Part shown: positions 2,290 to 64,000 of the stretch, in pieces
Position numbering within the stretch: the stretch's first letter is position 1
Layout: every line of letters starts with the position of its first letter
Program-made: the position numbers and the translations under genes
Origin: a virus
Taxonomy: Duplodnaviria; Heunggongvirae; Uroviricota; Caudoviricetes
Virus record (IMG/VR): IMGVR_UViG_3300045988_024527
Coordinates: 29,796 to 93,795 of that record
Length of the DNA stretch: 64,000 nt
Strand: one strand, 5' to 3'
The notes under the pieces: generated by a model
The model's database searches: none
The model's input: only the letters and a program-made list of their open reading frames with translations
Told to the model about the DNA's origin: nothing

Positions 2290-2730
2290 TTAGAAAGGTT
2301 TTCTACGTTGCTTGTTAATGTTAGCTTTCATAGCAGCTAAATGGTTTTGCTGTTCAATCAGTCGTGAACGTTCTTGATGACTAAGTGCCATAGTGTTCAC
2401 ATTCTCAATTGCTTGAGTGGCTTGTTTTAAAGCACGACCAATCTTACCAGACATTTTACGTTTTGCAATAGTTGCTTGATGTTTAGGTTCAACCACACGA
2501 TAACCAACACCCATTGAAGCAACCAGATAAATCTTCTCTTCTTTAAGAAGTTTCTCAATAAACTTCTCAAGTCGGTTTAGACGTGTAAGTGCATAAGCCT
2601 TCATTTCATCTTCGTACTTAACAATGTCACCTTGATAAGTTGGCTTCACAATACCTAAGAAGGTGTCCATCTCAGAATGTGATACAGTGTCACCGTAACT
2701 AAACTTTGCTGCTAATGCTTTTGTATTCAT
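2290..2730 (-). CDS. hypothetical protein
   Basis: 146 aa ORF. Confidence 0.5.
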   Translation of the reverse strand: MNTKALAAKFSYGDTVSHSEMDTFLGIVKPTYQGDIVKYEDEMKAYALTRLNRLEKFIEKLLKEEKIYLVASMGVGYRVVEPKHQATIAKRKMSGKIGRALKQATQAIENVNTMALSHQERSRLIEQQNHLAAMKANINKQRRKPF

Positions 2731-2732
2731 AA

Positions 2733-3730
<998 letters not shown>

Positions 3731-4831
3731 TTATTCGTAATCCCTAATAACTAGTCCAACAGGAAACTGTAAAGAACCCTTACGAGTCATCTTCTGGAAC
3801 TGAACAGTTAGAGGTTTCCCGATAAACTCTTCAGGATGTTCAGCAAGATACTGTTTCTTCTCATGAGTGGTCTTCCATGAGACATCTACAAAGACGTTAG
3901 GAAGAGTCTCTACAACGAACTTGCCATGACCACGTTTATCGGTCTTTACACCAGTAACTTTAAACTCTTCAGTGTGCATCTTCTTATGCTTAATCAAGAA
4001 GTATGAACGGTGACCACACTCGTAGAAAGATTCTTCAGAGATTGAGCGGTACATTGCACCTTCAAACTTAGCTTCAACCCACTTATCATGGGCTTCATCA
4101 AATTCTTCCCAAGAATTTACACGGATAGTCTGTACAGGAACCACTCGACAGGTATCCCCAAGCTCAACAATAGGTGAACTATCAATAACTTCACGACGCT
4201 CAGGCCAAGATTTTGAATTGTCACAGATATCATACCAGTAGAATTTAAGAAGGTGACGGTCTGGATTGTCAGCATTCTTAATCATAGATACAATATCTTC
4301 TAAGTCCCAACCATGAGCATAAATCTCGCCATCAAAGTCTTCAACTTGCGGGTGTAATTTAAGCAACAAAAGCAAATCTGGGATTAGTTCTGCTGGAACG
4401 TTGTAAACAGTATTCTCACGAGAATAAGCCGTAAAACTAACTGAATCAACATCTCTTGAAATTCTACAACGTACACCATCCAGTTTTGGTTGAGCATCAG
4501 CAGGAAATATCAAATACTTTGCATGACTAACCTTTGCAGCATCATGAGCAAGCTGTACACCTACCTTCTCAGTATTCTGTGCAGACTCTTTTGTGTAAGC
4601 ATAACCTTTACGGTCAACTTGCTTTTTATACTTAGCAGCAACTTCAAAGAGAGCTTGCTGTTCAGCATTACGCTCATTCTTTTTACCGATGTTTTTAGGT
4701 TCTGCTGTATACTCTTCAAACATCATCTTGCCATTTTCTTTACCGTAGGTTGTAATAACTTTGTTACCTATAGCACCACATGACCAGATGTTGAAGGAAC
4801 CGTCTTTATTTTGTTTGTACAGTGTTGTCAT
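3731..4831 (-). CDS. ATP-dependent DNA ligase
   Basis: nucleotidyltransferase motif I KLDGVR (lysine adenylation site); size and layout like T7-type ligases; start probably at MTTLYKQ. Confidence 0.75.
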   Translation of the reverse strand: MTTLYKQNKDGSFNIWSCGAIGNKVITTYGKENGKMMFEEYTAEPKNIGKKNERNAEQQALFEVAAKYKKQVDRKGYAYTKESAQNTEKVGVQLAHDAAKVSHAKYLIFPADAQPKLDGVRCRISRDVDSVSFTAYSRENTVYNVPAELIPDLLLLLKLHPQVEDFDGEIYAHGWDLEDIVSMIKNADNPDRHLLKFYWYDICDNSKSWPERREVIDSSPIVELGDTCRVVPVQTIRVNSWEEFDEAHDKWVEAKFEGAMYRSISEESFYECGHRSYFLIKHKKMHTEEFKVTGVKTDKRGHGKFVVETLPNVFVDVSWKTTHEKKQYLAEHPEEFIGKPLTVQFQKMTRKGSLQFPVGLVIRDYE

Positions 4832-21158: not shown

Positions 21159-21471
21159 TTTTAACAACTATGAGGGTCGTAAAAGACCCTCTAAAAATAA
21201 CTTTGGAGAGACCATGAAAGATTTAATAGAAAAACATGAGCGACCTATATACTTGCTCCACAAGCCTCGGAAAACGATGTACTATGTGAGTAGCACAGAC
21301 ATGATGATAAAACAAAATGATGACTCATGGGTTGCTGGTATCTCTTACATCTCTATAGCAGATGGTAAAATCTACGCAAGACCTTATGAGATGTTTAACA
21401 AAGAGAATTGGGAAGTTTTAGACAGAAAACAAGCCTTAGAAATGATAAAGAAAGGAGAAATCACGCTATGA
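21130..21471 (+). CDS. hypothetical protein (start probably internal at MKDLIEK)
   Basis: ORF between nrdA and nrdB. Confidence 0.35.
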   Translation: MLIARVVVFSFNNYEGRKRPSKNNFGETMKDLIEKHERPIYLLHKPRKTMYYVSSTDMMIKQNDDSWVAGISYISIADGKIYARPYEMFNKENWEVLDRKQALEMIKKGEITL

Positions 21472-22541
21472 TTAACCAGCACCCAATCTTTTTAGGTGGT
21501 GAGAGAAAAACTTTTGACTCACTTAATAAGCACTACCCAAAAATCTTCGAACTTTATAAACAACAAAAAGCACAAGACTGGTCAGAAGATGAGTTCCCTT
21601 TTGAACAATCACGTCTTGATTTTGAGAGTGTCCCAGCATCAATGTCAGGGGTAATGCTTGAGATTCTTAAGTGGCAGTGGGAAGCAGATACTCAAGTCGC
21701 TAAAAGTTTAGCGTTTGCCTTTGCACCATTCATCTCCGATGACATCTATGCGACTGCAATTATGAAGCAGTCTGAGATTGAAAACCTACATGCTCTTACT
21801 TACTCAGAGATTGTAAGGCAATGTATTAAAAACCCTGAAACAATCTTAGATGAGATTAACCAGAATGTTGCTGTACAAGACCGATTAAAAACTGTGAATC
21901 GTGTTCTTGAAGAATTACTGGATGAAGGTATAAACTATCGTCTGAGTTATGTGCGTGACTCACTTCTGGACAAAGACCCTTTACACTTCCATAAAGTGAT
22001 TCTAAAAGGTCTATTTGCAGTGACTGCACTTGAAGGTATTTCTTTTATGGCATCTTTTGCATGTACTTTTGCACTTGATGCTCAAGATAAATTTCAAGGT
22101 ATTGCTCAAGCTGTACAGAAAATTATGCTTGACGAAATCCTTCACACTAAAATTGATATTGAAGTTTTAAAAGAAACTTTAAGAGATGATGAGTGGCAAA
22201 AAGCTTTCCAACAAATTCTTCCAGAGATTAAAGTAATCTTAGATGAAGTAGTTGAAAGTGAAGAGAAATGGTCGTATTATATCTTCTCCGAAGGACGTGC
22301 TGTAGTTGGGTTAAATACAAAGCTTCTTCATGAGTGGGTTTACTATAATGCTGCCCCACTGTATGATATGTTTGGCATTCCCAGAGATTTTGTAGCTCCT
22401 AAAGAACCACCTTTGAAGTATATGATTAAGAAGATGGAAATTGATAAAGAGCAGAATGCTAATCAGGAGCAACAGAACGGTGCGTATTTATTGAATACTG
22501 TTGTAGATGATTTGAATAGTGGATTTTTAGAGGTTCCTTAA
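21468..22541 (+). CDS. nrdB: ribonucleoside-diphosphate reductase beta subunit
   Basis: di-iron/tyrosyl radical protein features; start chosen at MINQHPIF (track ORF extends upstream to 21408). Confidence 0.8.
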   Translation: MINQHPIFLGGERKTFDSLNKHYPKIFELYKQQKAQDWSEDEFPFEQSRLDFESVPASMSGVMLEILKWQWEADTQVAKSLAFAFAPFISDDIYATAIMKQSEIENLHALTYSEIVRQCIKNPETILDEINQNVAVQDRLKTVNRVLEELLDEGINYRLSYVRDSLLDKDPLHFHKVILKGLFAVTALEGISFMASFACTFALDAQDKFQGIAQAVQKIMLDEILHTKIDIEVLKETLRDDEWQKAFQQILPEIKVILDEVVESEEKWSYYIFSEGRAVVGLNTKLLHEWVYYNAAPLYDMFGIPRDFVAPKEPPLKYMIKKMEIDKEQNANQEQQNGAYLLNTVVDDLNSGFLEVP

Positions 22542-22783
22542 TGACTTATGTAATTTACTCCAAAACTGGATGCCCTCAGTGTGAGACTGCAAAGAATTTT
22601 GCGAAAGCTCGTGGTATTGACCATGTTGTGAGAATGTTAGGGCAGGATTATGAACTGCCAGACCTGATGGATATTGCACAGATGCCAGTTCGTCAGATGC
22701 CATTCATCATGAAAACTGACGGTCAAAACCTAAAACCTGTTGGAACGCTACAGAATTTTATGGCAGAGGTGAATAATGCTTAA
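22541..22783 (+). CDS. glutaredoxin/NrdH-like redoxin
   Basis: 80 aa, CPQC redox motif, adjacent to RNR genes. Confidence 0.7.
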   Translation: MTYVIYSKTGCPQCETAKNFAKARGIDHVVRMLGQDYELPDLMDIAQMPVRQMPFIMKTDGQNLKPVGTLQNFMAEVNNA

Positions 22784-22988: not shown

Positions 22989-23011
22989 AGGGTCTCTTCG
23001 GAGACCTTTTT
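22989..23011 (+). terminator. intrinsic terminator
   Basis: GGGTCTC-TTCG-GAGACC + TTTTT. Confidence 0.7.
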
Positions 23012-23030: not shown

Positions 23031-24227
23031 ATGAACAAAGTACAGATTATTAAAAAGAATGGCTCACTTGAAGAACCTGATATCAAAAAAGTTTTAGCAG
23101 CAGTAACTAAGTCAGCTAACAGAGTTGGATATAAAGAACTCCCACCAGATGTTACCCAAGCTCTTGAGTCAGCATTTATGAGGATTCTGGTAAAGTCCAC
23201 TAAGCAGAATAATTTACTCATCTCAGTCAATGATATCCACAGCATTGTTGAGGGTGCTTTGGCAGAAGTCAATCACGAGATTTATGAGTCTTACTCAACA
23301 TATAGAAATTACCGGAAAGAGGTTGCTCAAAATTGGGATGAGCTTTACCAAAAGACTAGAGACACGCTCTTCTTAGGTGACCGTGAAAACGCTAACTTTG
23401 ACAGCAGTTTAATTTCTACAAAAGGTTCAATTATTCGTGGTTATCTGACTAAAGAAATCTTTAAACAGTACCATTTAACACCAGAGGAACTTGAAGCCAT
23501 TGAAAAAGGGTTTATCTATATCCATGATTTAAGAGACCTAATTTTTGGTGGTATCAACTGTTGCCTGTTTGACATTGGTAAAGTACTGAAAGGTGGCTTT
23601 GAAATGTCTGGCATCGAATACTGTGAACCGAAGTCTGTGCTGTCAGCCTTACAGGTTATTGGTGATGTAGTTCTTTCAGCAACTGCACAGCAATTTGGTG
23701 GCTTTACTTTAGCAGAGATTGATAAGGTACTTGTACCGTATGCTAAGAAGTCTCTACGCTATCATGCTGAGAAAGCAGCATCTTACGGTATTCCTAAAGA
23801 ACATTACCACAATTATGTCATGGAGCAGCTACAGATTGAACTGACTCAAGGTTTCCAGTCACTTGAAATGAAACTAAACACTGTACCTTGTAGTCGTGGG
23901 GATTTTGCATTTACAACTTTGACATTTGGGTTACTTGACTCAGATATGTCTAATGAAGATAATCGACTGCAATACATGATTGCAAGTACTCTCCTAGATG
24001 TTCGTATGAATGGACAAGGTAAGAGCAAGAAGCCTGTTGTATTCCCTAAACTGGTTTATATTTATGACCAGAAGAGACACGATGAGAATATCTGTCAAGG
24101 ACACCTGTACAGTAAAGCCATTGAGTGTTGCTCTAAAGCGATGTATCCAGATTTCTTAAGTGTATCTGGTCATGGTGCTGTAGCAGAGGCTTTTGAGCGT
24201 TCTGGTAAGGTTATTTCACCGATGGGT
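23031..24227 (+). CDS. nrdD: anaerobic ribonucleoside-triphosphate reductase, exon 1
   Basis: ends ...SPMG then in-frame TAA; C-terminal half resumes in frame at 24970. Confidence 0.75.
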
Positions 24228-24969
24228 TAACAGGCTCTATAGCTCATCTAAAACGTGCCTAAACAGGGAAACTCTACAGATGTAGACAATCCTGTGCTAA
24301 ATGATGTACGATGTAAGAAACTATACAACATAGGAGTCTTACATGCCAAACTATCACGTCACTGAAGATGGAAAAGTCTTTAGGGAAAATGGTGTAGAAC
24401 TTACGCAGTGGAAATCCAACACTGGGTATATGAAAGTGAGGTTTTACGGTAAGAAGAATCGTGACATGTATGTCCACAGGTTAGTTGCTGAGAAATATGT
24501 ACCTAACCCGAATAATCTTCCAATTGTAAAACATAAGGACGATAACAAACTAAATAACCACGCATCTAACTTAGAATGGGGTACTCATTCTGAGAATGCT
24601 AAAGAGGGTTATGAGAACGGATGTTACAAGTTCCACAAGCGTTCATATGCCGTGAAAGCCACACACAAAGTGACAAAGGAAGTTATTGTTGCTAAGTCAA
24701 TACGAGAGTTATCCAATATACTTGGACACAATCGCAAGACCATCTCTTCAATATTGAAGGGTGTAAAAGAGCATAATAACTTCGAATATGAGTTTGAATA
24801 CATCTAAATGCCGAACGACTAACCGTGATGAATGTAGCGGTGTAGGGTCAAGCGACTCGAAATGGTACGCTACTTAGAAATAAGTAGAAGATATAGTCTG
24901 GACTTACTGGCGACAGTAAGCAGCTTGAATAAAGCGGGGTAAGCTTAGCGAACTTACCTGAACAACAAG
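24228..24969 (+). mobile_element. putative group I self-splicing intron in nrdD
   Basis: 742 bp insert splitting one conserved protein; stop codon at 5' junction after U; ends in G; contains HNH ORF; core-like segments GTAGGGTCAAGCGACTCGAAA and AGATATAGTC. Confidence 0.55.
24343..24807 (+). CDS. HNH homing endonuclease (intron-encoded)
   Basis: VHRLVAEKY..HKDDNKLNNHASNLEWGTHSEN HNH motif. Confidence 0.7.
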   Translation: MPNYHVTEDGKVFRENGVELTQWKSNTGYMKVRFYGKKNRDMYVHRLVAEKYVPNPNNLPIVKHKDDNKLNNHASNLEWGTHSENAKEGYENGCYKFHKRSYAVKATHKVTKEVIVAKSIRELSNILGHNRKTISSILKGVKEHNNFEYEFEYI

Positions 24970-25917
24970 TGTAGAGCGTTTTTATCACCATATCTTAACG
25001 ATAATGGGGAAGAGTTCTATGTAGGTCGTGCTAACATTGGTGCTGTGTCTTTGAACTTACCAATGATTTACCAGTATTCTAAAGAGAATGGTTTAGATTT
25101 CTGGAAAGAGCTTGATAAGTACCTAGAGATGATTCGTAGTTTCCACAAGAAACGCTATGAAATGATTGCCAATATGCCAGCAAGTTCTAACCCTCTTGCA
25201 TTTACACAAGGTGGTCTGTACAAAGGAACTAAGAAGCCTACTGACAAGGTTGGTTGGGATATTGTGAAGTCCTTCACAGCTTCTTTTGGGGTTACTGCGC
25301 TTGATGAGCTATCTGTTCTTGCTGAAGGTAAACGACTTCATGAAGTTGGAAGCTATAGTTTTGCATATGATGTTCTGGCATACATCAATATGAAAACTGA
25401 AGAGTTTAAGAACGAAGATGGCTTCTTGTATGCGGTATATGGCACTCCAGCAGAATCACTTTGTGGAACTCAGTTAAAACAGTTCAGAGATATGTTTGGC
25501 GTTATTAAAGGTGTCTCTGACAAGGAATACTTTACAAACAGTTTCCATATGAATGTTGCAGCAGACATCTCACCATTTGAGAAGCAGGACTTAGAAGAGC
25601 CATTCTTCCATATCTGTAGAGGTGGTAGAATCCAGTATGTAAGGGTAGCTAACCCAGAAAACTTACCAGCACTTAAAAGTTGTATTACAAGAGGGATGTT
25701 GAAGGGTTTTTATCAGGGACTTAACTTTGACTTAGCAATCTGTGAACATTGTGGTAACAGACCAAAAGCTGATGTTGAAGAATGTGAGGTTTGTCATTCA
25801 CATGATATCTCTGTGATTAACAGGGTGTGCGGATACTTATCATTCACAAAAATTAAAGGCCAGTCTCGAATGAATGACGCTAAGATGGCAGAAATTAAGG
25901 ATAGGATTTCTATGTAA
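24970..25917 (+). CDS. nrdD: anaerobic ribonucleoside-triphosphate reductase, exon 2
   Basis: open frame from 24949; GRANIGAVSLNLP matches conserved NrdD region; C-terminal CEHCG..CEVCHSHD cysteine cluster and glycyl-radical region. Confidence 0.7.
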   Translation, partial: CRAFLSPYLNDNGEEFYVGRANIGAVSLNLPMIYQYSKENGLDFWKELDKYLEMIRSFHKKRYEMIANMPASSNPLAFTQGGLYKGTKKPTDKVGWDIVKSFTASFGVTALDELSVLAEGKRLHEVGSYSFAYDVLAYINMKTEEFKNEDGFLYAVYGTPAESLCGTQLKQFRDMFGVIKGVSDKEYFTNSFHMNVAADISPFEKQDLEEPFFHICRGGRIQYVRVANPENLPALKSCITRGMLKGFYQGLNFDLAICEHCGNRPKADVEECEVCHSHDISVINRVCGYLSFTKIKGQSRMNDAKMAEIKDRISM

Positions 25918-26070
25918 AACTTGACAAGGTGATGTGGGTCTTGATAGGCTTACATCACCTTTTTATTGGATGTTATATATGGCAGAGAGTATTATTGGGT
26001 TGTTCATAGGTTCTGTCTTACTAGGGTTCTTTTTAGGACTCTCTTATTGTGAGTTGAGAGGCAAGTTAAA

Positions 26071-26722: not shown

Positions 26723-27208
26723 ATGAATTACATGGAGATTAGACCATTTGACACAGCTAATGGTGAAGGGGTTCGTGTAAGCCTCTTCGTAGCTGGCTGT
26801 AAACATCACTGTGAAGGCTGCTTTAACAGGGAGTCTTGGAAGTTTAATGCTGGTAAAGAGTTTACTTATGCAAACCTCTACGGCATCATTAAGTTAATGG
26901 ATGATAAGGCCATTAGTGGGTTGTCAATACTTGGTGGAGAGCCTCTGGATGACAGAAACATTCAAGAGGTCACCAACATATGCAAACGTATTAAAACTGT
27001 TTACCCAGAAAAATCTATATGGCTTTGGACAGGTTTTCAGTTACACGAAAAAATCCACCTAGATGTGATGAAATATGTTGACGTGGTGATTGATGGTAAG
27101 TATGATTCTTCTAAACCAACGAACAAACCATATCGTGGTTCAGACAACCAAAACTTGTGGAGAAAAGAATATGGGTGGCAAGGCGACTGTCAGTGGAGAG
27201 CAGAGTAG
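26723..27208 (+). CDS. nrdG: anaerobic RNR activating enzyme (radical SAM)
   Basis: CKHHCEGC radical-SAM cysteine motif, about 160 aa, downstream of nrdD. Confidence 0.85.
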   Translation: MNYMEIRPFDTANGEGVRVSLFVAGCKHHCEGCFNRESWKFNAGKEFTYANLYGIIKLMDDKAISGLSILGGEPLDDRNIQEVTNICKRIKTVYPEKSIWLWTGFQLHEKIHLDVMKYVDVVIDGKYDSSKPTNKPYRGSDNQNLWRKEYGWQGDCQWRAE

Positions 27209-57403: not shown

Positions 57404-57480
57404 CTCTGTTTAGCTCAGATTGGTAGAGCGTTCCGTTTGGGGCGGTAAGGCCGGAGGTTCAAGTCCTCCAACAGAGACCA
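57404..57480 (+). tRNA. tRNA-Pro (anticodon UGG), hand-folded
   Basis: acceptor CTCTGTT/AACAGAG, T-arm GGAGG-TTCAAGT-CCTCC, loop TTTGGGG, CCA encoded. Confidence 0.55.
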
Positions 57481-57487
57481 AATTAAT

Positions 57488-57565
57488 GTTCCAGTAGACA
57501 AAATGGTATAGTCACCACTCTTTCAAAGTGGATATCTGAGGGTTCAAATCCCTTCTGGAACGCCA
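57488..57565 (+). tRNA. tRNA-Glu (anticodon UUC), hand-folded
   Basis: acceptor GTTCCAG/CTGGAAC, anticodon stem CCACT/AGTGG loop CTTTCAA, CCA encoded. Confidence 0.55.
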
Positions 57566-57650
57566 GTTTTGACAGAAGACCGATTACAGCAAACAACTTT
57601 TACTTTTCGCGCATAGAAAACATAAAAAGCTTGGTCTGGTCATTAAGAAT

Positions 57651-57727
57651 CGCGGGTATAGAGAAAGGGCGTCTCACATGTCTCATTAGCATGGTAACGG
57701 TTGGTTCGACTCCAACACCCGCCTCCA
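57651..57727 (+). tRNA. tRNA-Met/Ile2 (anticodon CAU) with unpaired 1:72
   Basis: anticodon stem CATGT/GCATG loop CTCATTA, T-arm GTTGG-TTCGACT-CCAAC, C1-C72 mismatch. Confidence 0.45.
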
Positions 57728-57812
57728 AATTTACAGAAGACCGTTTACAGCAAAATTTAATGAAATTTTTAGCGGAAAAAATTGAAAGATACGGTCTGGT
57801 AATACTAAACAT

Positions 57813-57889
57813 GGTTAGGAAGCACATAAGGTATGTGCGGTCGCCTGTTAAGCGAATGGCACAGGGTTCGAGTCCCTGACTAACCGCCA
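57813..57889 (+). tRNA. tRNA-Asn (anticodon GUU)
   Basis: D-arm GCAC-ATAAGGTAT-GTGC, loop CTGTTAA, T-arm CAGGG-TTCGAGT-CCCTG, CCA. Confidence 0.6.
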
Positions 57890-57898
57890 AATTTAAAT

Positions 57899-57986
57899 GT
57901 GTCGTTATCCCGTAGATGGTAGCGGTGGGGACTGTAAATCCCTTGTCATTGAGACTCGGTAGGTTCGACTCCTACACGGCACACCA
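57899..57986 (+). tRNA. tRNA-Tyr (anticodon GUA), class II with long variable arm
   Basis: 88 nt; anticodon loop CTGTAAA; T-arm GTAGG-TTCGACT-CCTAC; CCA. Confidence 0.55.
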
Positions 57987-58008
57987 ATACTTAGCGAGAT
58001 ACTTAGTT

Positions 58009-58437
58009 ATGAGAGATGAAGTATACAAATCACAACTTGGTATGAGTTTAGGAACTGCACAAAACAGACTAGTAAAAGATTTGCTATTCGATTTGATATG
58101 TAAAACAAATCAAAATATATGTTTTCAGTGCGGAAAAGAAATGACTAGGGATGATTTCTCCATCGAGCATAAGATTCCGTGGAGACATAGTGAAAATGCA
58201 AAAGAGCTTTTCTTTTCATTAGATAATATTTCTTATAGTCATCTTAAATGTAATATGAAAGCAGCAAGACCAGCACAGGTATATGATAGGAAGCCTAAAC
58301 CAATTAAACACGGCACTGCACACAGCTACTCTAAAGGTTGTAGATGCGAGGAGTGTAGGCTGGCTAAGAATGCTGAGGGCAGGAAGCACTATAACCCAGA
58401 AAGGCGTAGGAAGAAGTATTTAAGAAATGGTACATAG
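58009..58437 (+). CDS. HNH endonuclease
   Basis: CFQCGKEM..FSIEHKIPW..HLKCN HNH motif; start set after tRNA-Tyr (track ORF 57916 overlaps tRNA). Confidence 0.6.
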   Translation: MRDEVYKSQLGMSLGTAQNRLVKDLLFDLICKTNQNICFQCGKEMTRDDFSIEHKIPWRHSENAKELFFSLDNISYSHLKCNMKAARPAQVYDRKPKPIKHGTAHSYSKGCRCEECRLAKNAEGRKHYNPERRRKKYLRNGT

Positions 58438-58443
58438 GGTTTT

Positions 58444-58519
58444 GGGGTGTTAGTTTAGACGGGTAAAATACTGGATTGTCTCTCCTGAGCCGCGAGTTCG
58501 ATTCTCGCACACCTCGCCA
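58444..58519 (+). tRNA. tRNA, anticodon unresolved (non-canonical anticodon arm; GUC/Asp possible)
   Basis: clear acceptor GGGGTGT/ACACCTC, T-arm GCGAG-TTCGATT-CTCGC and CCA; anticodon stem not clean. Confidence 0.4.
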
Positions 58520-58946
58520 ATTTTGAGAGGGCTATTTAGCCCCTCCCTTAAAGGGTTCTTACGAGTATCCTTTAAAGGAGCAGAAGACCAAATACAGCAA
58601 GTTACTTAAAATTTCAAGCCAATTCAATTTTGAAAAATTTAAAACTTGGTCTGGCTCAACAAATTTACAGAAGACCGTTTACAGCAAAACTTAAACAATC
58701 TATTTCTCCGGTAAAGAAAAGGCGAAGGTTCGATTCCTTCACTCGGCAGATGTCGAGTTGGTGTAATGGTAGCACTTAAGATGATAAACAACGGTCTGGT
58801 AATTATCTTTGTAGATAAGTTATTAAGCTTCCCTGTGAGTATGCGACCACAAAGGTGAAGGGTAAATTCTAGATTTAAACCCAAAAAGGCACATCGCTAC
58901 AGACCTTAAGCAAGTCTGGGTAGCTTATCTACAAAGATAATTTAAT

Positions 58947-59022
58947 GGAAGTGTAGCAGAATGGTGATGCGGCAGACTTTTAATCTGACAGGCGATGGGT
59001 TCGAATCCCTCCACTTCTACCA
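58947..59022 (+). tRNA. tRNA-Lys (anticodon UUU)
   Basis: acceptor GGAAGTG/CACTTCT, anticodon loop CTTTTAA, T-loop TTCGAAT, CCA. Confidence 0.5.
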
Positions 59023-59026
59023 ATAT

Positions 59027-59103
59027 GGTTCAGTCGCAGATAAGGTAATGCAAGGGTCTCATAAGCCCTATGAATGTGGGTTCGATTCCCATCTGAACCT
59101 CCA
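59027..59103 (+). tRNA. tRNA-Met (anticodon CAU)
   Basis: acceptor GGTTCAG/CTGAACC, anticodon stem AGGGT/GCCCT loop CTCATAA, T-arm GTGGG-TTCGATT-CCCAT, CCA. Confidence 0.55.
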
Positions 59104-59111
59104 ATTTATAG

Positions 59112-59606
59112 GTGATACTTATGATTTGTGCTAACAAAGATTGCGGAAATGAAGCCGTTAAAGGTGGAAAATTTTGCTCACGCTCTTGTTCTGCAAAAGT
59201 GAACAACAAGAAACACCCAAAGAGAAGTCAGGAAGGCTCTTGCCATTCATGCGGAAAGGTAACGCCAAAAGCGAGAAAATACTGTGACGAATGTATTGCA
59301 GGTGGAGTCATGAAAAAACATAAGACCCATCATGAAAAAAGCAAAGCCAAATCACTGCACGTTAAAAAGTCTCGTGACAGACTGAAGAAGGCTTTAGTTG
59401 ATTACAAGGGTGGTTGTTGTTCAATTTGTGGTTACAATAGGTGCATAAAGGCTCTAGAGTTTCACCACTTAGACCCTAAGACAAAAGACTTCACAGTAAG
59501 TAAAAAACACTACTCACTGGCTACAATGCAGTCTGAAGTTGATAAGTGTGTCTTGCTTTGTGCAAATTGTCACAGAGAAGTACACGAAGGGGTAACAATG
59601 CTGTGA
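59112..59606 (+). CDS. HNH endonuclease
   Basis: EFHHLDP..CVLLCANCHREVH HNH motif plus N-terminal Cys-rich region. Confidence 0.65.
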   Translation: MILMICANKDCGNEAVKGGKFCSRSCSAKVNNKKHPKRSQEGSCHSCGKVTPKARKYCDECIAGGVMKKHKTHHEKSKAKSLHVKKSRDRLKKALVDYKGGCCSICGYNRCIKALEFHHLDPKTKDFTVSKKHYSLATMQSEVDKCVLLCANCHREVHEGVTML

Positions 59607-59675
59607 AAGCACATATGGATGTGCGTTCGGCTGATAACCGAAAGGCAGAAGGTTCGAATCCTTCTCACAGTACCA
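59600..59675 (+). tRNA. tRNA-Ile (anticodon GAU)
   Basis: D-arm GCAC-ATATGGAT-GTGC, anticodon stem TTCGG/CCGAA loop CTGATAA, T-arm GAAGG-TTCGAAT-CCTTC, CCA; 5' end overlaps HNH stop. Confidence 0.6.
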
Positions 59676-59690
59676 ATTTCAAAAAAGTTG

Positions 59691-59719
59691 TTGACATTGA
59701 GATGTGACTACTTTATAGT
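59691..59719 (+). promoter_or_regulatory. consensus sigma70 promoter
   Basis: TTGACA-17 bp-TATAGT. Confidence 0.55.
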
Positions 59720-59923
59720 AACCTTAGTTTTCGTTGCGTAGCGTCTATTTTGCAAATTTAAAATAAATGCAAACGACAATGTTTTTCTGGCAGTAGCTTG
59801 ATAGGCTAAACACCAGTGAGGTCTTCCAATCCCTCATCAAAGAATTTGGCGTACTCGCCCACGGTATGATTAATAAGGTGGGCATCTTTAAGGGCTTTCT
59901 AAGAGAGTCTTTAAAGATAATTA

Positions 59924-60005
59924 CGGGGCGTATCTCAGCTGTCTTCTAAACAGCCGTTAACCGAGTAAGTGGAGTATGCGGGTTCGAGTCCTGCCGCCTC
60001 GACCA
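59924..60005 (+). tRNA. tRNA-like gene, non-canonical (possible anticodon UCU/Arg; no clear D-arm)
   Basis: acceptor CGGGGCG/CGCCTCG, T-arm GCGGG-TTCGAGT-CCTGC, CCA; stem-loop GCTGT-CTTCTAA-ACAGC. Confidence 0.4.
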
Positions 60006-60060
60006 ATTTTGGAGAAATCATGAAAACTTGTATTAGGTGCAAACTTAGCAAGGATGAATA

Positions 60061-60175
60061 GGTAAGGTGTTGAATGTTAAAAAAAAAAAATCCCATTATT
60101 TGACGAGATAGAAAACAACTCAGTAACAAATGGTGACTCTATCGAGCTAATAAAAAAAGTACAAACTCAATCCGC
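60061..60175 (+). repeat. direct repeat copy 1 (start of plasmid unit; repeated at 63889-64000)
   Basis: GGTAAGGTGTTGAATGTTAAAAA..CCCATTATTTGACGAGATAGAAAACAACTC..GCTC near-identical except poly-A length and one substitution. Confidence 0.85.
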
Positions 60176-60995
60176 TCACTTAATACTGAGTGATATTCCT
60201 TACGGAATAGGAGCTGATGATTGGGATGTACTTCATAAAAACTCGAACAATGCCTATCTAGGTTCAAGCCCCGCACAAAAATCAGCTGGTGCCATTTTCA
60301 AAAAAAGAGGAAAGCCTATAAATGGCTGGTCTGATGCAGATAGAAAAATACCTTTAGAGTATCAACAATGGTGTGAAGAGTGGGCGAGGGAATGGTATCG
60401 TGCCTTAAAACCAGGAGCTAGTGCAATCATTTTCGCTGGTAGGAGATTTTCACACAGATGTATTTGCGCAATGGAAAATGCTGGATTTAACCTCAGAGAT
60501 ATAATCGCATGGATGCGAACAAAAGCTCCTCATCGTGCACAAAGGCTAAGCTGCGTATATGAAAGGCGTGGGGACCAATATAACAAAGAAAAATGGGACG
60601 GCTGGAGGGTTGGAAACTTACAGCCAACATTTGAGCCAATACTATGGTTTTCAAAACCCTACAAAATAGGAGGGACTATTGCTGATAACGTTCTATTGCA
60701 TGGTGTTGGAGCATATAACCAAGATGCGTTCACAGCAAGAAATGGAAAACCTGAAAATGTAATACATGCTGGCTTTGAGAGAAATGAAGGTGGATTACAT
60801 CCAACGCAGAAGCCTGTTTCGCTGATGAAAGCGCTAATAGAACTAACTACTCAAGAAGGACAGCTAGTAATAGATCCATTTAGTGGTAGCGGTTCAACTC
60901 TTGTGGCAGCAAAAGAGCTGGGCAGAAACTATATAGGCTTCGAGTTTAACCCAGCATATGTAGAAATAAGCAAAAAAAGATTAGAAGATAAATAA
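60074..60995 (+). CDS. Type II DNA methyltransferase (amino-MTase, motif IV before motif I); frameshifted in A12 tract
   Basis: motif IV SDIPYG, motif I VIDPFSGSGST; ATG at 60074 is out of frame with the body (frame opens at 60081) because of 12-A run at 60079-60090; in-frame in second copy. Confidence 0.75.
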
Positions 60996-61922
60996 CTACT
61001 TAAGTGACAGTATATTATTATCTGTCACTTTATTTATTTGGTCTATCCTACTGTCTATTTTATGCATTTTTATCAACGCACTGACAGCCTCATCCTTGGT
61101 CATCATTAGCATCCTTGTACGTTCAGAAGATAGAAATTCTATAGCCATTTTTTTTGAAACGGCAATACCCTCAGTTGTGGCTGATTTTTCATCACTCCAA
61201 AGCTCAGCTATCCTACTATCATAGCTTAACATTGTTCTATTTATATTCACCCAATATTGCACACTATCTTTGCTAGGGTTGAGTAAAGATACAGATTTAA
61301 ATATTTCACCAAGAAGGTTTTTACTATCTTCAGTTGTTGCTATAGCTGAATATCTTATGAGAACGGCCAGGTGTGTATATGTAAAAACACAAACATTTCG
61401 CAATATAGCTTGCTGATATATTTGACTTGATTTTGTTGGCAACTGATATATTGGACATACAACCATTGCAAAGTCTTTGGTATTTCTCCAACCATCCATA
61501 GCCTGAACTTTAAAGTCTTTTTGATTTTTTGCAGTTCTACTCAAGCGAAATACTTTGGCATCTGCCACAAATGAATAGCTATCGCAAACAACCTCAACAT
61601 CAGCCGCATCTGCCCTTTCAGTCAAAACAATACTATTTAACCCTAAATATTTAAAACATTCTGATATCAGTGCATCTGTATACTTTGAGTACAGTTTTTC
61701 TTCACTTGAATCATGATCATATGACTCAGGTATTGCTGTGCATAACCTAAGGTGGTCTAGTAATGCTTGACTTCCAGATTTCTTAACCTCATCTATTATT
61801 TCATTTTCAACTCTGCTTGAGTCGTTAACAAAGTGACCACTTAGTTTTACTATTTCATCAATCCAGTAACGCCTTCTTATTATTGCATCTTCAGTAATGA
61901 ATTTAAAATTACATAAGTCCAT
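60996..61922 (-). CDS. putative Type II restriction endonuclease
   Basis: 308 aa ORF convergent and abutting the MTase; possible PD-(D/E)xK-like CD..VADAK; no direct motif proof. Confidence 0.45.
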   Translation of the reverse strand: MDLCNFKFITEDAIIRRRYWIDEIVKLSGHFVNDSSRVENEIIDEVKKSGSQALLDHLRLCTAIPESYDHDSSEEKLYSKYTDALISECFKYLGLNSIVLTERADAADVEVVCDSYSFVADAKVFRLSRTAKNQKDFKVQAMDGWRNTKDFAMVVCPIYQLPTKSSQIYQQAILRNVCVFTYTHLAVLIRYSAIATTEDSKNLLGEIFKSVSLLNPSKDSVQYWVNINRTMLSYDSRIAELWSDEKSATTEGIAVSKKMAIEFLSSERTRMLMMTKDEAVSALIKMHKIDSRIDQINKVTDNNILSLK

Positions 61923-62394
61923 TTTTAATACCCGATATAATTAATCAATAACTCAGTATAATCTCGCGATCATAACAGATTTTTTCATCTGCCGAATAAT
62001 AGAACTATCAGTTTATATGGCTAGAGATTCGCTTGTATTTACCATAACATCCGTTGCGTGCACCGCCTGAGAGGCTCTCAGGGCGTTTCTGACGGGAAAC
62101 CGGTAAAACAGGCAACAAACTACCCGAAAACCCGCCAGAAACGCGCAGGCTCTGTTTTTACGGCATGCATGAGTATGCGCGCAAGTGCATAGCGCGGAAA
62201 TTCACGCCATTCAGCCGGGGTAAGTCCTGTTTCCGTCGTTCTTCCCACCCGAAAACGGTGAACGGGGACGCAATTTATTGCGTGGCCGTGAGGCGTTGCC
62301 GGCACAGCCGGAAAACCCGTTTTCAGCACGTTCAGGAAGGGGGCCGATGTACGAATGGTTCAGGGAACGGATCTGAGGTAATCCGGTAGTTACT

Positions 62395-62525
62395 TTGTAG
62401 TTTATCTGTAGTTTTCTTGTAGTCTATTAGTAGTCCGCCACGGTTTTTGTAGTTTTTTTGTAGTCTGCCATCACTAATGCAAAACGTTTTTTGTAGTTTA
62501 TCTGTAGTTTTTGGTTGCTCAGATG
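62395..62525 (+). repeat. iteron-like direct repeats (TTGTAGTYT units)
   Basis: TTTGTAGTTTATCTGTAGTTTT twice plus degenerate TTGTAGTCT copies. Confidence 0.6.
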
Positions 62526-62808
62526 GTCATGCTTGCATGACCATCAAAGAATAGGACGCTTTTTAGCCAAATACCCCTTAACCTACGGAGAGCGCCCTAC
62601 CAAAAAAGATGATTTTTTATCCCTTAAATGGTCATACACCATACGCAACCGCGATTTTCATCGCAATTGCATGAATTAAAAGGTAAAAACTGAATTTCCC
62701 GTTTATTTATGTAATACGCAACGTATTACAACCACCTGTAATCACATGAAAATAAAGAAATAAGATGTAATACCGGCGTATTACACGTACGCTGACCAGC
62801 GAAAAAAG

Positions 62809-62958
62809 TTATAACGCTTCCCTGCCGACAGGCGGGCCAAAATCCACCGGGGCGTGCAGGTTCTCTTCAGTAACCTGCGCCATTAAATCAAAAAGGTCAT
62901 ATTCGCCGGGAAGCTGCGTATCAGTCGCATCCCGTTGTTCATCATATTCAGATGGCAT
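62809..62958 (-). CDS. small acidic hypothetical protein (plasmid)
   Basis: 49 aa ORF with ATG, just upstream of ori region; weak. Confidence 0.25.
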   Translation of the reverse strand: MPSEYDEQRDATDTQLPGEYDLFDLMAQVTEENLHAPVDFGPPVGREAL

Positions 62959-63029
62959 GGGGTGATATCCAGTAGCTGAAAGGTTGTTAGCGGGTTTCGG
63001 GGCGCAGCCCTGAACCAGTCACGTAGCGC

Positions 63030-63860
63030 TAGCGGAGTGTATCCGAGCTTATTATGTTGGCATGAGTGCGATGATCAGGAAAGTGCTTCATGTGGCAGGA
63101 GAAAAATGCAGCAGCGGAGCGTAAGCAGAATATGCGATACAGGAGATATTCCGCTTCCTCGCTCACTGACTCGCTGCGCTCGGTCGTTCGGCTGCGGCGA
63201 GCGGTACAGGCTTACGGGCGGGGCGGAAGTGTCCGGGAAGATGCCAGGGAGAGACGGAAAAGGGAAGCGAGAAGGTCGCGGCGAAGCCGTTTTTCCATAG
63301 GCTCCGCCCCCCTGACAAGCATCGCGAAATCTGACGCTCAAATCAGTGGTGGCGAAACCCGACAGGACTTAAAGATCCCAGGCGTTTCCCCCTGGTAGCT
63401 CCCTCGTGCGCTCTCCTGTTCCTGCCTTTCGGTTTACCGGTGTCATTCCGCTGTTATGGCCGCGTTTGTCTCATTCCACGCCTGACACTCAGTTCCGGGT
63501 AGGCAGTTCGCTCCAAGCTGGACTGTATGCACGAACCCCCCGTTCAGTCCGACTGCTGCGCCTTGTCCGGTAACTATCGTCTTGAGTCCAACCCGGAAAG
63601 ACACGATAAAACGCCACTGGCAGCAGCCATTGGTAACTGATTTACGGAGCGAAGCGTTAAGTGTAATAGAGTTCTTGAAGTGAGCGGCTTACTACAGCTA
63701 CACTGGAAGGACAAATTAGGTCACTGCGCTCCGTGAAAGCCAGTTACCACGGTTCAGAAGTTCCCCAACTAACTGAACCCTGAAAAAGCCGCCTCCCCAG
63801 GCGGTTTTTTCTTTTCAAAAGGCTACGACGAAAGGTTATCCTGCGTCAAGATAACTTTGG
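63030..63860. other. ColE1/p15A-family plasmid replication origin region
   Basis: long stretches match remembered p15A/pMB1 ori (TTTTCCATAGGCTCCGCCCCCCTGACAAGCATC..GCGTTTCCCCCTGG..GTTCGCTCCAAGCTGG..CACGAACCCCCCGTTCAG). Confidence 0.85.
63711..63808 (+). ncRNA. RNA I-like antisense replication control RNA
   Basis: position and similarity to ColE1/p15A RNA I; ends in terminator GCCGCCTCCCCAGGCGG + TTTTTTC. Confidence 0.6.
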
Positions 63861-63888
63861 TAGTTATAATGAAGTGAATAAACCATTG

Positions 63889-64000
63889 GTAAGGTGTTGA
63901 ATGTTAAAAAAAATCCCATTATTTGACGAGATAGAAAACAACTCCGTAACAAATGGTGACTCTATCGAGCTAATAAAAAAAGTACAAACTCAATCCGCTC
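63889..64000 (+). repeat. direct repeat copy 2 (restart of plasmid unit, MTase 5' end in frame with 8-A tract)
   Basis: matches 60061-60175; ATG at 63899 gives MLKKIPLFDEIENNSVTNGDSIELIKKVQTQSA. Confidence 0.85.

What the first reader, a model, noticed from the sequence alone, without database searches (positions are those of the whole stretch)
23031..25917. nrdD interrupted by a 742 bp putative group I intron carrying an HNH endonuclease
The NrdD N-terminal part ends ...SPMG followed by TAA, and the C-terminal part resumes in frame at 24970 (CRAFLSPYLNDNGEEFYVGRANIG...). The insert ends in G after a U at the 5' junction, contains group-I-core-like segments and an HNH ORF (24343-24807). Exact splice sites are inferred.
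Basis: partly seen in the sequence, partly recalled or inferred. Interest (0 to 1): 0.55.

Follow-up and report, generated by a model that had tools for sequence, protein, structure and literature searches.

The report
Group I intron splitting phage nrdD
The anaerobic ribonucleotide reductase gene of this Felix O1-like phage is interrupted, just before its catalytic cysteine codon, by a T4-type self-splicing group I intron carrying an HNH homing endonuclease gene; this is a real but ordinary mobile element, already annotated in sister phages.

Summary
nrdD exon 1 (23031-24227) and exon 2 (24970-25917) are separated by a 742-nt insert (24228-24969). Joining them gives a 714-aa NrdD collinear with uninterrupted alleles of sister phages.

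The insert is a subgroup IA2 group I intron, like those of T4 td and sunY, and lacks P2. All helices P1-P9.2 and P10 pair perfectly. Six homologous phage introns support the structure by covariation: 97% of cells paired, and 27 of 61 pairs with compensatory changes.

Rfam's group I model scores below threshold here (33 bits) because the ORF splits the core. It passes (53.6 bits) in a naturally ORF-less allele.

The ORF (24343-24807) is an I-HmuI-like HNH endonuclease in the P6a loop. It is under purifying selection.

Felixounavirus genomes carry intronless, ORF-containing, frameshifted-ORF and ORF-deleted alleles, the pattern expected of a homing element. Homologous HNH introns occupy the same Gly|Cys site in four other phage groups. 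The T4 nrdD intron sits elsewhere in the gene.

GenBank records for phages Meda and Bas63 already annotate the joined CDS, and the Meda genome paper mentions the interruption. Splicing and cleavage are inferred, not tested here. Verdict: already known, low interest.

The parts
23031..24227 (+). nrdD exon 1 (399 codons: ATP-cone plus the N-terminal half of the NrdD barrel). It ends ...SPMG with GGU. The last 7 nt, GAUGGGU (24221-24227), form the exon strand of P1.
24228..24969 (+). Group I intron, subgroup IA2-like, without P2, 742 nt. It begins with an in-frame UAA stop and ends with the terminal G at 24969.
24234..24248 (+). Internal guide sequence. 24234-24241 (GCUCUAUA) pairs 8/8 with the first 8 nt of exon 2 to form P10. 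24242-24248 (GCUCAUC) pairs 7/7 with the last 7 nt of exon 1 to form P1, including the U.G wobble at the 5' splice site.
   Evidence: homologous P1 pairings in other phages
24254..24308 (+). 5' half of the ribozyme core: P3 5' strand (24254-24259), P4 (24263-24268 / 24290-24295), P5 hairpin (24273-24286), P6 5' strand (24296-24297) and P6a 5' strand (24303-24308).
24332..24336 (+). Shine-Dalgarno-like AGGAG, 6 nt upstream of the HNH start codon. An 8-bp hairpin (24311-24318 / 24337-24344) could occlude the AUG, but it is not conserved.
   Evidence: sequence; C111A change in variants
24343..24807 (+). HNH homing endonuclease gene (154 aa), I-HmuI-like, looped out of P6a. Its last codons (UAC AUC, 24799-24804) are the 3' strand of P6a.
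24799..24969 (+). 3' half of the ribozyme core: P6a and P6 3' strands, J6/7, P7 (24817-24821 / 24894-24898), P7.1, P7.2, P3 3' strand (24864-24869), P8 with a GAAA loop, J8/7 AAGAUA, P9 with a GCGA loop, P9.1, P9.2, and the terminal G at 24969.
24970..25917 (+). nrdD exon 2 (315 codons plus stop). It starts with UGU, the conserved finger-loop cysteine codon (Cys400), and contains the glycyl-radical domain and the Zn-ribbon cysteines.
25926..25961 (+). Terminator-like hairpin plus T-run directly after nrdD.
   Evidence: annotated as a terminator in phage Meda
26723..27208 (+). Context: nrdG-like radical-SAM activase gene downstream. nrdB (21408-22541) and a glutaredoxin gene (22541-22783) lie upstream.

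Best explanation
The 742-nt insert is a mobile, self-splicing group I intron of the T4 td/sunY type (subgroup IA2, no P2) in the nrdD gene of a Felix O1-like myophage (Felixounavirus).

In the pre-mRNA, the internal guide sequence (24234-24248) pairs with the last 7 nt of exon 1 to form P1, with a U.G wobble at the splice site. It pairs with the first 8 nt of exon 2 to form P10.

An external guanosine bound in P7 attacks after U24227. The freed exon 1 3'-OH then attacks after the terminal G24969. This ligates GGU to UGU and restores the finger-loop motif SPMG-C, and with it a full-length 714-aa NrdD.

Ribosomes reading the unspliced RNA stop at the UAA that forms the first three intron bases.

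The ORF looped out of P6a encodes an I-HmuI-like HNH endonuclease. It presumably nicks or cuts intronless nrdD alleles of co-infecting phages near the Gly|Cys codons, so that repair copies the intron in (homing).

Shown here: the anatomy, the exact exon join, covariation-supported RNA structure, selection on the ribozyme and the ORF, and presence/absence polymorphism. Inferred: actual splicing, endonuclease activity and its target.
For: 1. Exon join. The 2145-nt joined CDS has the same length as intronless nrdD in phage dune and aligns without gaps. About 130 Felixounavirus records match contiguously across the joint. The joined protein is one stretch against TIGR02487 and against PDB NrdD structures.

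2. Rfam RF00028. 33.1 bits, E 1.7e-6, in the window. 53.6 bits, above the gathering score of 50, E 4.5e-12, in the ORF-less EC6 allele.

3. Pairing. All 14 proposed helices, including P1 (7/7) and P10 (8/8), pair 100%.

4. Covariation. The alignment covers six homologous introns: window, Vequintavirus, Vibrio F98, Aeromonas phiA047, RB10 td and T4 nrdD. Paired cells are 97.1%, and 27 of 61 pairs have changes on both sides. No shuffle out of 500 reached this. Controls with the 3' partner slid by 1-3 columns gave 34-40% paired and at most 4 such pairs.

5. Thermodynamics. The minimum-free-energy fold of the ORF-less allele recovers P10, P3-P6a, P7.2, P8, P9, P9.1 and P9.2, and a P7.1-like stem, with z = -4.33.

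6. Similarity to a proven intron. The 3' core is about 71% identical to the T4 td intron.

7. Selection within the genus. In 92-94% identical copies, all 9 and all 6 core substitutions fall in unpaired nucleotides. ORF codon changes are 38 synonymous to 8 non-synonymous, and 32 to 6.

8. Endonuclease. The ORF matches I-HmuI (1U3E) over residues 3-151 at E 4e-9 and PHROG 59, HNH endonuclease, at 2.7e-42.

9. Homing-cycle polymorphism. About 61 records carry the full intron. About 32-35 carry a 316-nt form with a clean in-frame 426-nt deletion of the ORF. A few have frameshifted ORFs. The rest are intronless.

10. Same site elsewhere. Homologous HNH introns sit at the same SPMG|C site in JSE, Phapecoctavirus, Vequintavirus and Vibrio phages.
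Against: - No experimental evidence of splicing or of endonuclease activity exists for this element in anything I could find.
- The Rfam model does not reach its gathering score on the window sequence itself.
- In the HNH motif, the residue aligned with the I-HmuI residue preceding the catalytic His is Lys or Cys rather than Asp throughout this subfamily. From memory, that I-HmuI residue (Asp74) is a metal ligand, so the cleavage chemistry may differ.
- The covariation set has only six sequences and the structure was derived from one of them, though the slid controls argue against a bias artefact.
Confidence: 0.93

Rival explanations
1. The gene is split without RNA splicing. A homing endonuclease cassette broke nrdD into two genes, whose products assemble non-covalently into an active enzyme, as reported for Aeromonas phage Aeh1 nrdA split by mobE.
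For: Many GenBank records annotate two separate NrdD CDSs plus an HNH gene. The Aeh1 precedent is cited in PMC3653736.
Against: - The insert contains a complete, covariation-supported group I core whose guide sequence pairs with both exon ends.
- Exon 2 has no start codon at 24970. The first in-frame start is GTG at 25045, 25 codons downstream, which would lose the catalytic Cys.
- The ribozyme core is far more conserved than the ORF, at 1-2% against 9-10% divergence. That is unexplained if the RNA had no function.
- ORF-less alleles keep the 316-nt core.
Confidence: 0.03
2. The intron is decayed and non-splicing, so nrdD is a pseudogene in this phage. The anaerobic reductase would be dispensable because nrdAB is present.
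For: Splicing is untested. nrdB lies just upstream, so an aerobic RNR is available. The HNH ORF is being lost in part of the population.
Against: - Both exons are under strong purifying selection against the intronless allele: 46 nt but 2 aa differences in exon 1, and 70 nt but 12 aa differences in exon 2.
- No substitution in any paired core position appears among diverged copies.
- All helices are intact.
Confidence: 0.03
3. The insert is an intein or a group II intron rather than a group I intron.
For: Inteins and group II introns also interrupt ribonucleotide reductase genes at conserved sites (PMC3653736).
Against: - An in-frame UAA lies at the first intron codon, and the HNH ORF is separate with its own ribosome-binding site, which excludes an intein.
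- There is no reverse transcriptase ORF and no group II match in Rfam, whereas the group I model matches.
Confidence: 0.005

Closest known systems
Phage T4 td intron (encodes I-TevI), subgroup IA2
   Same: - The core is near-identical: P3-P6 (GACAAUCCYGUGCUAAAU), P7, P7.1, P7.2 (GGGUCAAGYGACUCGAAA), J8/7-P7' (AGAUAUAGUC), P9 with a GNRA loop, and P9.2.
- The 3' core is about 71% identical.
- The endonuclease ORF is looped out of P6a.
- The intron starts with an in-frame UAA.
- The host gene is a nucleotide-metabolism gene.
   Different: - The host gene is td, not nrdD.
- The T4 td intron has a P2 hairpin that is absent here.
- Its endonuclease, I-TevI, is GIY-YIG, not HNH.
- Its length is 1016 nt against 742 nt.
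Phage T4 nrdD (sunY) intron (encodes I-TevII)
   Same: - The host gene is the same.
- It is the same IA2 type without P2.
- The 5' region is very similar (AGCUCAUGUAAAAUCUGCCUAAAACGGGAAAC...).
   Different: - The insertion site differs. In T4 it follows residue about 181, equivalent to about residue 280 here, roughly 119 codons upstream of this site.
- Its ORF is GIY-YIG and lies in the P9 region, not HNH in P6a.
I-HmuI (Bacillus phage SPO1 DNA polymerase intron; PDB 1U3E)
   Same: Full-length sequence homology of the endonuclease: residues 3-151 against 12-168, E 4e-9. This covers the N-terminal beta region, the HNH(N) motif and the C-terminal helix-turn-helix-like tail. Both proteins are encoded in phage group I introns.
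   Different: - The host gene and phage differ.
- I-HmuI is, from my own knowledge, a strand-specific nicking enzyme. Whether this protein nicks or makes double-strand breaks is unknown.
- The residue before the catalytic His is Lys here and Asp in I-HmuI.
Same-site nrdD introns of Krischvirus JSE, Phapecoctavirus nepoznato, Vequintavirus 241Ecol014PP / A13b and Vibrio phage F98
   Same: - The insertion point is identical (…MG|CRSFL…).
- The ribozyme cores are homologous.
- The HNH proteins are homologous, 40-54% identical.
   Different: - The phage genera differ.
- Their ORFs run 5 codons further (…EMPND), through J6/7 into P7, whereas the Felixounavirus ORF stops at UAA inside the P6/P6a internal loop.
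- Some of these nrdD genes carry a second intron upstream.
Identical element in sister Felixounavirus genomes (e.g. Meda MH586731, Bas63/JohannRWettstein MZ501086, allfine MN850633)
   Same: The intron is 92-99.6% identical at the same site. nrdD is annotated as a two-piece joined CDS with an internal HNH gene. The Meda genome announcement mentions it (PMC6486253).
   Different: Nothing material. The window copy is one more allele.

Membership tests
Group I catalytic intron (Rfam RF00028) | Match to the family covariance model at or above the curated gathering score | tested here: inconclusive
   The window copy scores 33.1 bits against a gathering score of 50 (E 1.7e-6 locally, 1.2e-4 on the whole window). 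The model cannot bridge the 465-nt ORF. The 99%-identical ORF-deleted EC6 allele scores 53.6 bits, above the gathering score.
Group I catalytic intron | P1 helix formed by the 5' exon end and an internal guide sequence, with a U.G wobble at the 5' splice site | tested here: met
   GAUGGGU (24221-24227) pairs 7/7 with GCUCAUC (24242-24248), including U24227.G24242. Equivalent pairings occur in five homologues, with helix 1 at 90.5% paired cells.
Group I catalytic intron | Terminal G at the 3' end of the intron, and P10 pairing of the 3' exon with the guide sequence | tested here: met
   The intron ends in G24969. GCUCUAUA (24234-24241) pairs 8/8 with UGUAGAGC (24970-24977). The minimum-free-energy fold also recovers this pairing.
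Group I catalytic intron | Conserved core helices P3-P9, including the P3/P7 pseudoknot and the J8/7 strand, supported by covariation | tested here: met
   61 pairs were counted on six homologous introns. Paired cells are 97.1%, 27 pairs have changes on both sides, and P3 has 5 of 6 pairs covarying. P7 is invariant, so it is uninformative. Slid controls gave at most 40% paired.
Group I catalytic intron | Autocatalytic, guanosine-initiated splicing | not testable with these tools
   This needs in vitro transcription with GTP labelling, or RT-PCR from infected cells.
Subgroup IA2 (T4-type phage introns) | P7.1/P7.2 insertion between P7 and P3', and sequence homology to the T4 td, nrdB or sunY cores | tested here: met
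   P7.1 is 24822-24825 / 24838-24841 and P7.2 is 24845-24849 / 24854-24858. The intron aligns with the RB10 td and T4 nrdD introns and is about 71% identical to td over 160 nt.
HNH homing endonuclease (I-HmuI-like; Pfam HNH_3) | HNH_3 domain above the gathering score, with conserved His and Asn residues | tested here: met
   HNH_3 scores 41.2 bits against a cutoff of 24.8. H64, D67, N72, N76 and N85 are invariant among five same-site homologues. The protein matches I-HmuI at E 4e-9 over its full length.
HNH homing endonuclease | Site-specific cleavage or nicking of the intronless allele, and super-Mendelian inheritance | not testable with these tools
   Only indirect evidence is available: presence/absence polymorphism within the genus, the same site occupied in five phage lineages, and purifying selection on the ORF.
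Class III ribonucleotide reductase NrdD (TIGR02487) | Full-length match of the joined exons above the equivalog cutoff, with the finger-loop Cys and the glycyl-radical domain | tested here: met
   The joined protein scores 487.8 bits against a cutoff of 326.35, covering profile positions 2-581 of 581 in one stretch. Gly_radical is present in exon 2. SPMGCRAFLS aligns with T4 SPMGCRSFLS.

The most novel reading that the evidence does not exclude
The most novel reading not excluded is that the Gly|Cys finger-loop site of nrdD hosts one family of I-HmuI-like HNH group I introns that has moved among at least five unrelated phage lineages: Felixounavirus, Krischvirus, Vequintavirus, Phapecoctavirus and marine Vibrio phages. 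The Felixounavirus population would then display every stage of the homing cycle at once: empty site, active endonuclease gene, frameshifted gene, a clean in-frame deletion of the gene, and possibly precise loss. This family and its cross-genus spread do not seem to have been described as such in the literature I could search. It would be a convenient natural system for studying endonuclease-gene turnover in virulent phages.
Probability: 0.4. Interest if true: 0.3.

Novelty: already known. Interest (0 to 1): 0.15.

Why it matters
The main value is for annotation. Most Felixounavirus records list two 'NrdD' fragments plus an HNH gene, when there is one spliced gene, and Rfam's gathering threshold misses the ORF-containing form.

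Biologically it is one more case of a phage group I intron sitting exactly at a catalytic codon of a nucleotide-metabolism gene, here the finger-loop cysteine of the class III reductase. The full range of homing-cycle states is visible within one genus.

It does not open a new question about intron or ribonucleotide reductase biology.

Tried and rejected
- Whole-window Rfam scans, at gathering and at E <= 0.01, found no second group I intron. The ORF-less DNA polymerase intron reported for phage Meda was therefore not seen in this window. I did not locate the polymerase gene, so it may lie outside the window or be intronless here.
- I considered that the start codon of the HNH ORF is masked by an 8-bp hairpin (24311-24318 / 24337-24344), as a T4-like translational control. 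The fold z-score is only -1.97, and a C-to-A change breaks one pair in two diverged copies. I keep this as weak speculation only.
- I tested whether the element is the T4 nrdD intron at the same site. It is not: T4's lies about 119 codons upstream.
- Literature searches for a dedicated description of a Felix O1-group or JSE nrdD intron found only the Meda announcement and general reviews. The Felix O1 genome paper states that introns are absent from that phage.
- A search for 'Cys290' found nothing. The identification of the T4 catalytic Cys rests on my own residue count, on general statements in PMC4493059, and on recalled primary literature.
- I did not use the large protein-database searches, structure prediction or metagenome scans, because the phage collection already answered the question.
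Full report
**What the window is**

Window positions 1 to about 60,050 are a Felix O1-like myophage (Felixounavirus). The nrdD region is 96-97% identical over its full length to Salmonella phage Sl26, Escherichia phage allfine and dozens of others.

The local gene order is nrdB (21408-22541), glutaredoxin (22541-22783), a small membrane-protein ORF, nrdD, three small ORFs, and an nrdG-like radical-SAM activase (26723-27208).

**Checking the observation**

The ORF at 23031-24230 ends ...SPMG-TAA, and the frame resumes at 24970 with CRAFLSPYLNDNGEEFYVGRANIG.

- Pfam places the ATP-cone and NRDD profile positions 1-250 in the first piece. It places NRDD positions 264-560 and the glycyl-radical domain in the second.
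- Joining 23031-24227 to 24970-25917 gives 2145 nt (714 aa).
- That is exactly the length of the uninterrupted nrdD of phage dune. The two align without any gap at 94.6% nt and 98.0% aa identity.
- The junction reads CCGATGGGT|TGTAGAGC in both.
- The joined protein matches the NrdD equivalog TIGR02487 from end to end in one stretch, 487.8 bits against a cutoff of 326.
- It also spans the joint in single alignments to solved NrdD structures.

**What the insert is**

Rfam's group I model RF00028 finds the insert but scores only 33.1 bits against a gathering score of 50. The E-value is 1.7e-6 for the local search and 1.2e-4 for the whole window. The alignment shows that the model is broken by the 465-nt ORF.

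Nature supplies the control. About a third of the intron-bearing Felixounavirus genomes, such as EC6, SEP1 and D1-2, carry a 316-nt version of the same insert. In phage EC6 that version scores 53.6 bits, above the gathering score, at E 4.5e-12.

The short form is a clean in-frame 426-nt deletion of the ORF. It leaves ATGCCA|AATAAC...TAA.

I drew the secondary structure by comparison with T4 td and T4 nrdD and checked it by script. Every proposed helix pairs 100%.

| Helix | 5' strand | 3' strand | Note |
|---|---|---|---|
| P1 | 24221-24227 | 24242-24248 | 7 bp, with U24227.G24242 at the splice site |
| P10 | 24234-24241 | 24970-24977 | 8 bp |
| P3 | 24254-24259 | 24864-24869 | |
| P4 | 24263-24268 | 24290-24295 | |
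| P5 | 24273-24277 | 24282-24286 | |
| P6 | 24296-24297 | 24810-24811 | |
| P6a | 24303-24308 | 24799-24804 | |
| P7 | 24817-24821 | 24894-24898 | |
| P7.1 | 24822-24825 | 24838-24841 | |
| P7.2 | 24845-24849 | 24854-24858 | |
| P8 | 24870-24876 | 24881-24887 | GAAA loop |
| P9 | 24903-24909 | 24914-24920 | GCGA loop |
| P9.1 | 24923-24926 | 24932-24935 | |
| P9.2 | 24937-24943 | 24953-24959 | |

The contiguous guide sequence GCUCUAUA-GCUCAUC pairs with both exon ends. This fixes the splice sites at 24227/24228 and 24969/24970, with the terminal G at 24969.

There is no P2, as in the T4 sunY intron.

An unconstrained minimum-free-energy fold of the ORF-less allele recovers P10, P3, P4, P5, P6, P6a, P7.2, P8, P9, P9.1 and P9.2, and a P7.1-like stem. 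Its z-score against shuffles is -4.33.

**Covariation**

I aligned the ORF-stripped cores of six homologous phage introns:

- this window;
- Vequintavirus 241Ecol014PP nrdD;
- Vibrio phage F98 nrdD;
- an ORF-less intron in Aeromonas phage phiA047;
- RB10 td;
- T4 nrdD.

I then counted 61 pairs.

| Measure | Proposed structure | Controls |
|---|---|---|
| Cells forming standard pairs | 97.1% | 34-40% with the 3' partner slid by 1-3 columns |
| Pairs with changes on both sides | 27 of 61 | at most 4 when slid |
| Shuffles reaching the observed values | 0 of 500 | |

P3 alone covaries at 5 of 6 pairs. P7 is invariant, so it is uninformative.

Within the genus, copies that are 92-94% identical (BPS17S6, UAB_69) place all 9 and all 6 of their core substitutions in unpaired nucleotides. 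The 3' core diverges by 1.2-1.9%, against 9-10% in the ORF.

**The ORF**

The ORF at 24343-24807 encodes a 154-aa protein.

- It matches Pfam HNH_3 and PHROG 59, HNH endonuclease, at 2.7e-42.
- Over its full length it matches I-HmuI, the intron-encoded HNH endonuclease of phage SPO1 (PDB 1U3E, E 4e-9).
- It has its own AGGAG 6 nt upstream of the start codon.
- It is looped out of P6a, and its last sense codons form the P6a 3' strand.
- Between diverged copies, ORF codon changes are 38 synonymous to 8 non-synonymous, and 32 to 6. Substitutions fall 41 of 49 and 34 of 41 at third codon positions. The protein is therefore maintained by selection.
- Some copies (FG1m, FM4b, EC106) match only in two pieces, which points to frameshifts.

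**Population picture**

Counts in the phage collection are approximate.

- About 61 records hold the full intron with an HNH protein at least 90% identical.
- About 32-35 hold the ORF-deleted 316-nt intron.
- About 130 are intronless and match contiguously across the joint, among them dune, wV8 and HY02.
- The Felix O1 genome paper states that Felix O1 has no insertion in these genes (PMC3185647).

Empty site, intact endonuclease gene, decaying gene and gene-less intron together form the classical pattern for a homing element. I recall this as the Goddard-Burt cycle; it is cited in PMC2988022.

**Where it sits in NrdD**

The intron separates the Gly399 and Cys400 codons in SPMG|CRAFLS. In a tblastn alignment this is T4 NrdD SPMG|CRSFLS, and by my count that Cys is residue 290 of T4 NrdD.

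The finger loop of ribonucleotide reductases carries the conserved cysteine that initiates catalysis, and in class III enzymes a nearby Met as well (PMC4493059). That T4 Cys290 is this cysteine is my recollection of the primary literature, not a tool result.

Insertion at a catalytic codon is typical of phage group I introns (PMC2988022).

The well-known T4 nrdD (sunY) intron is not at this site. It lies after T4 residue about 181, equivalent to about residue 280 here.

Homologous introns with HNH proteins 40-54% identical do occupy exactly this Gly|Cys site in Krischvirus JSE, Phapecoctavirus nepoznato, Vequintavirus 241Ecol014PP (and the record named 'Campylobacter phage' A13b), and Vibrio phage F98.

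In those phages the ORF runs five codons further (…EMPND), into P7. The Felixounavirus ORF stops at a UAA just before the same, still in-frame, AUG CCG AAC GAC UAA.

**Mechanism**

The anatomy, the join, the structure and the selection are shown. The chemistry is inferred from the family.

- Guanosine-initiated cleavage occurs after U24227.
- Exon ligation occurs after G24969, guided by P1 and P10.
- Ribosomes on unspliced RNA stop at the UAA that opens the intron. The td and sunY introns share this feature.
- The HNH protein would nick or cut intronless alleles in mixed infections, and repair would then copy the intron in.
- A hairpin that could mask the HNH start codon exists, but it is weak and not conserved.

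**Rivals**

- A split gene whose two products assemble without splicing. The intact, selected ribozyme core argues against it, as does the absence of any start codon for exon 2 before 25045.
- A dead intron in a pseudogene. Strong purifying selection on both exons argues against it: 2 of 399 and 12 of 316 aa differences against 46 and 70 nt differences.
- An intein or a group II intron. The in-frame stop, the separate ORF and the Rfam results exclude both.

**Novelty**

The same element is already annotated as a two-piece joined nrdD CDS with an internal HNH gene in phages Meda and JohannRWettstein/Bas63.

The Meda genome announcement says that an HNH endonuclease interrupts the anaerobic reductase large subunit, and that another, endonuclease-less intron lies in the DNA polymerase gene (PMC6486253). 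The BASEL paper notes that intron boundaries were annotated.

I found no experimental or structural description of the element. The finding is correct, belongs to a textbook class, and is already known at the annotation level. Interest is low.

Noticed in passing
window 60058-64000 (RNAI at 63712-63813): The window is composite. Felixounavirus homology stops at about 60,010-60,058. The rest is 99% identical to a 3.8-kb ColE1-type E. coli plasmid (NZ_AP027826.1) carrying a HindIII-family restriction-modification system. This explains a full-length Rfam RNAI hit of 77.3 bits that is absent from other Felixounavirus genomes. It is probably two records or contigs joined end to end, not a biological junction.
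   Followed up: partly
window 57404-60002: A cluster of 8 tRNA genes passes the Rfam gathering score, as expected for Felix O1-like phages. The Felix O1 genome paper reports 22 tRNAs.
   Followed up: no
L001 1501-1816 (phage EC6) compared with window 24228-24969: The ORF-less intron allele is an exact in-frame 426-nt (142-codon) deletion. It leaves a 12-codon mini-ORF (MPNNFEYEFEYI) that keeps the ribosome-binding site, the start codon and the P6a 3' strand. This suggests the ORF was deleted from an ORF-containing ancestor, not that the ORF was gained.
   Followed up: partly
L006 (Vibrio phage F98) 225-1383; L007 (Vequintavirus 241Ecol014PP) 1384-1691: These phages' nrdD genes carry a second intervening sequence upstream of the Gly|Cys-site intron. 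It has J8/7-like AGAGATAGTC motifs, and in F98 a second HNH gene. nrdD appears to be a multi-site intron target.
   Followed up: no
L010 2422-2683 (Aeromonas phage phiA047): A 262-nt ORF-less IA2 intron, closely related in core sequence to the one studied here, lies between two CDSs annotated as 'hypothetical protein' (1321-2424 and 2683-3780). It probably splits a single unannotated gene.
   Followed up: no
L009 (MG065677.1, 'Campylobacter phage A13b'): This record is classified as Vequintavirus. In the motif scan its conserved intron-core motifs fall at the same locus coordinates as in E. coli phage 241Ecol014PP (L007), and its nrdD is interrupted at the same MG|CRSFLS site. The Campylobacter host label on these UNVERIFIED records looks doubtful.
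   Followed up: no
window 22991-23006 and 25926-25961: Terminator-like hairpins bracket nrdD. The upstream one (22991-23006) was called by the scan on the minus strand, but its stem is palindromic and phage Meda annotates a plus-strand terminator at the equivalent place. The downstream one (25926-25961) is on the plus strand. Together they suggest nrdD is its own transcription unit.
   Followed up: no
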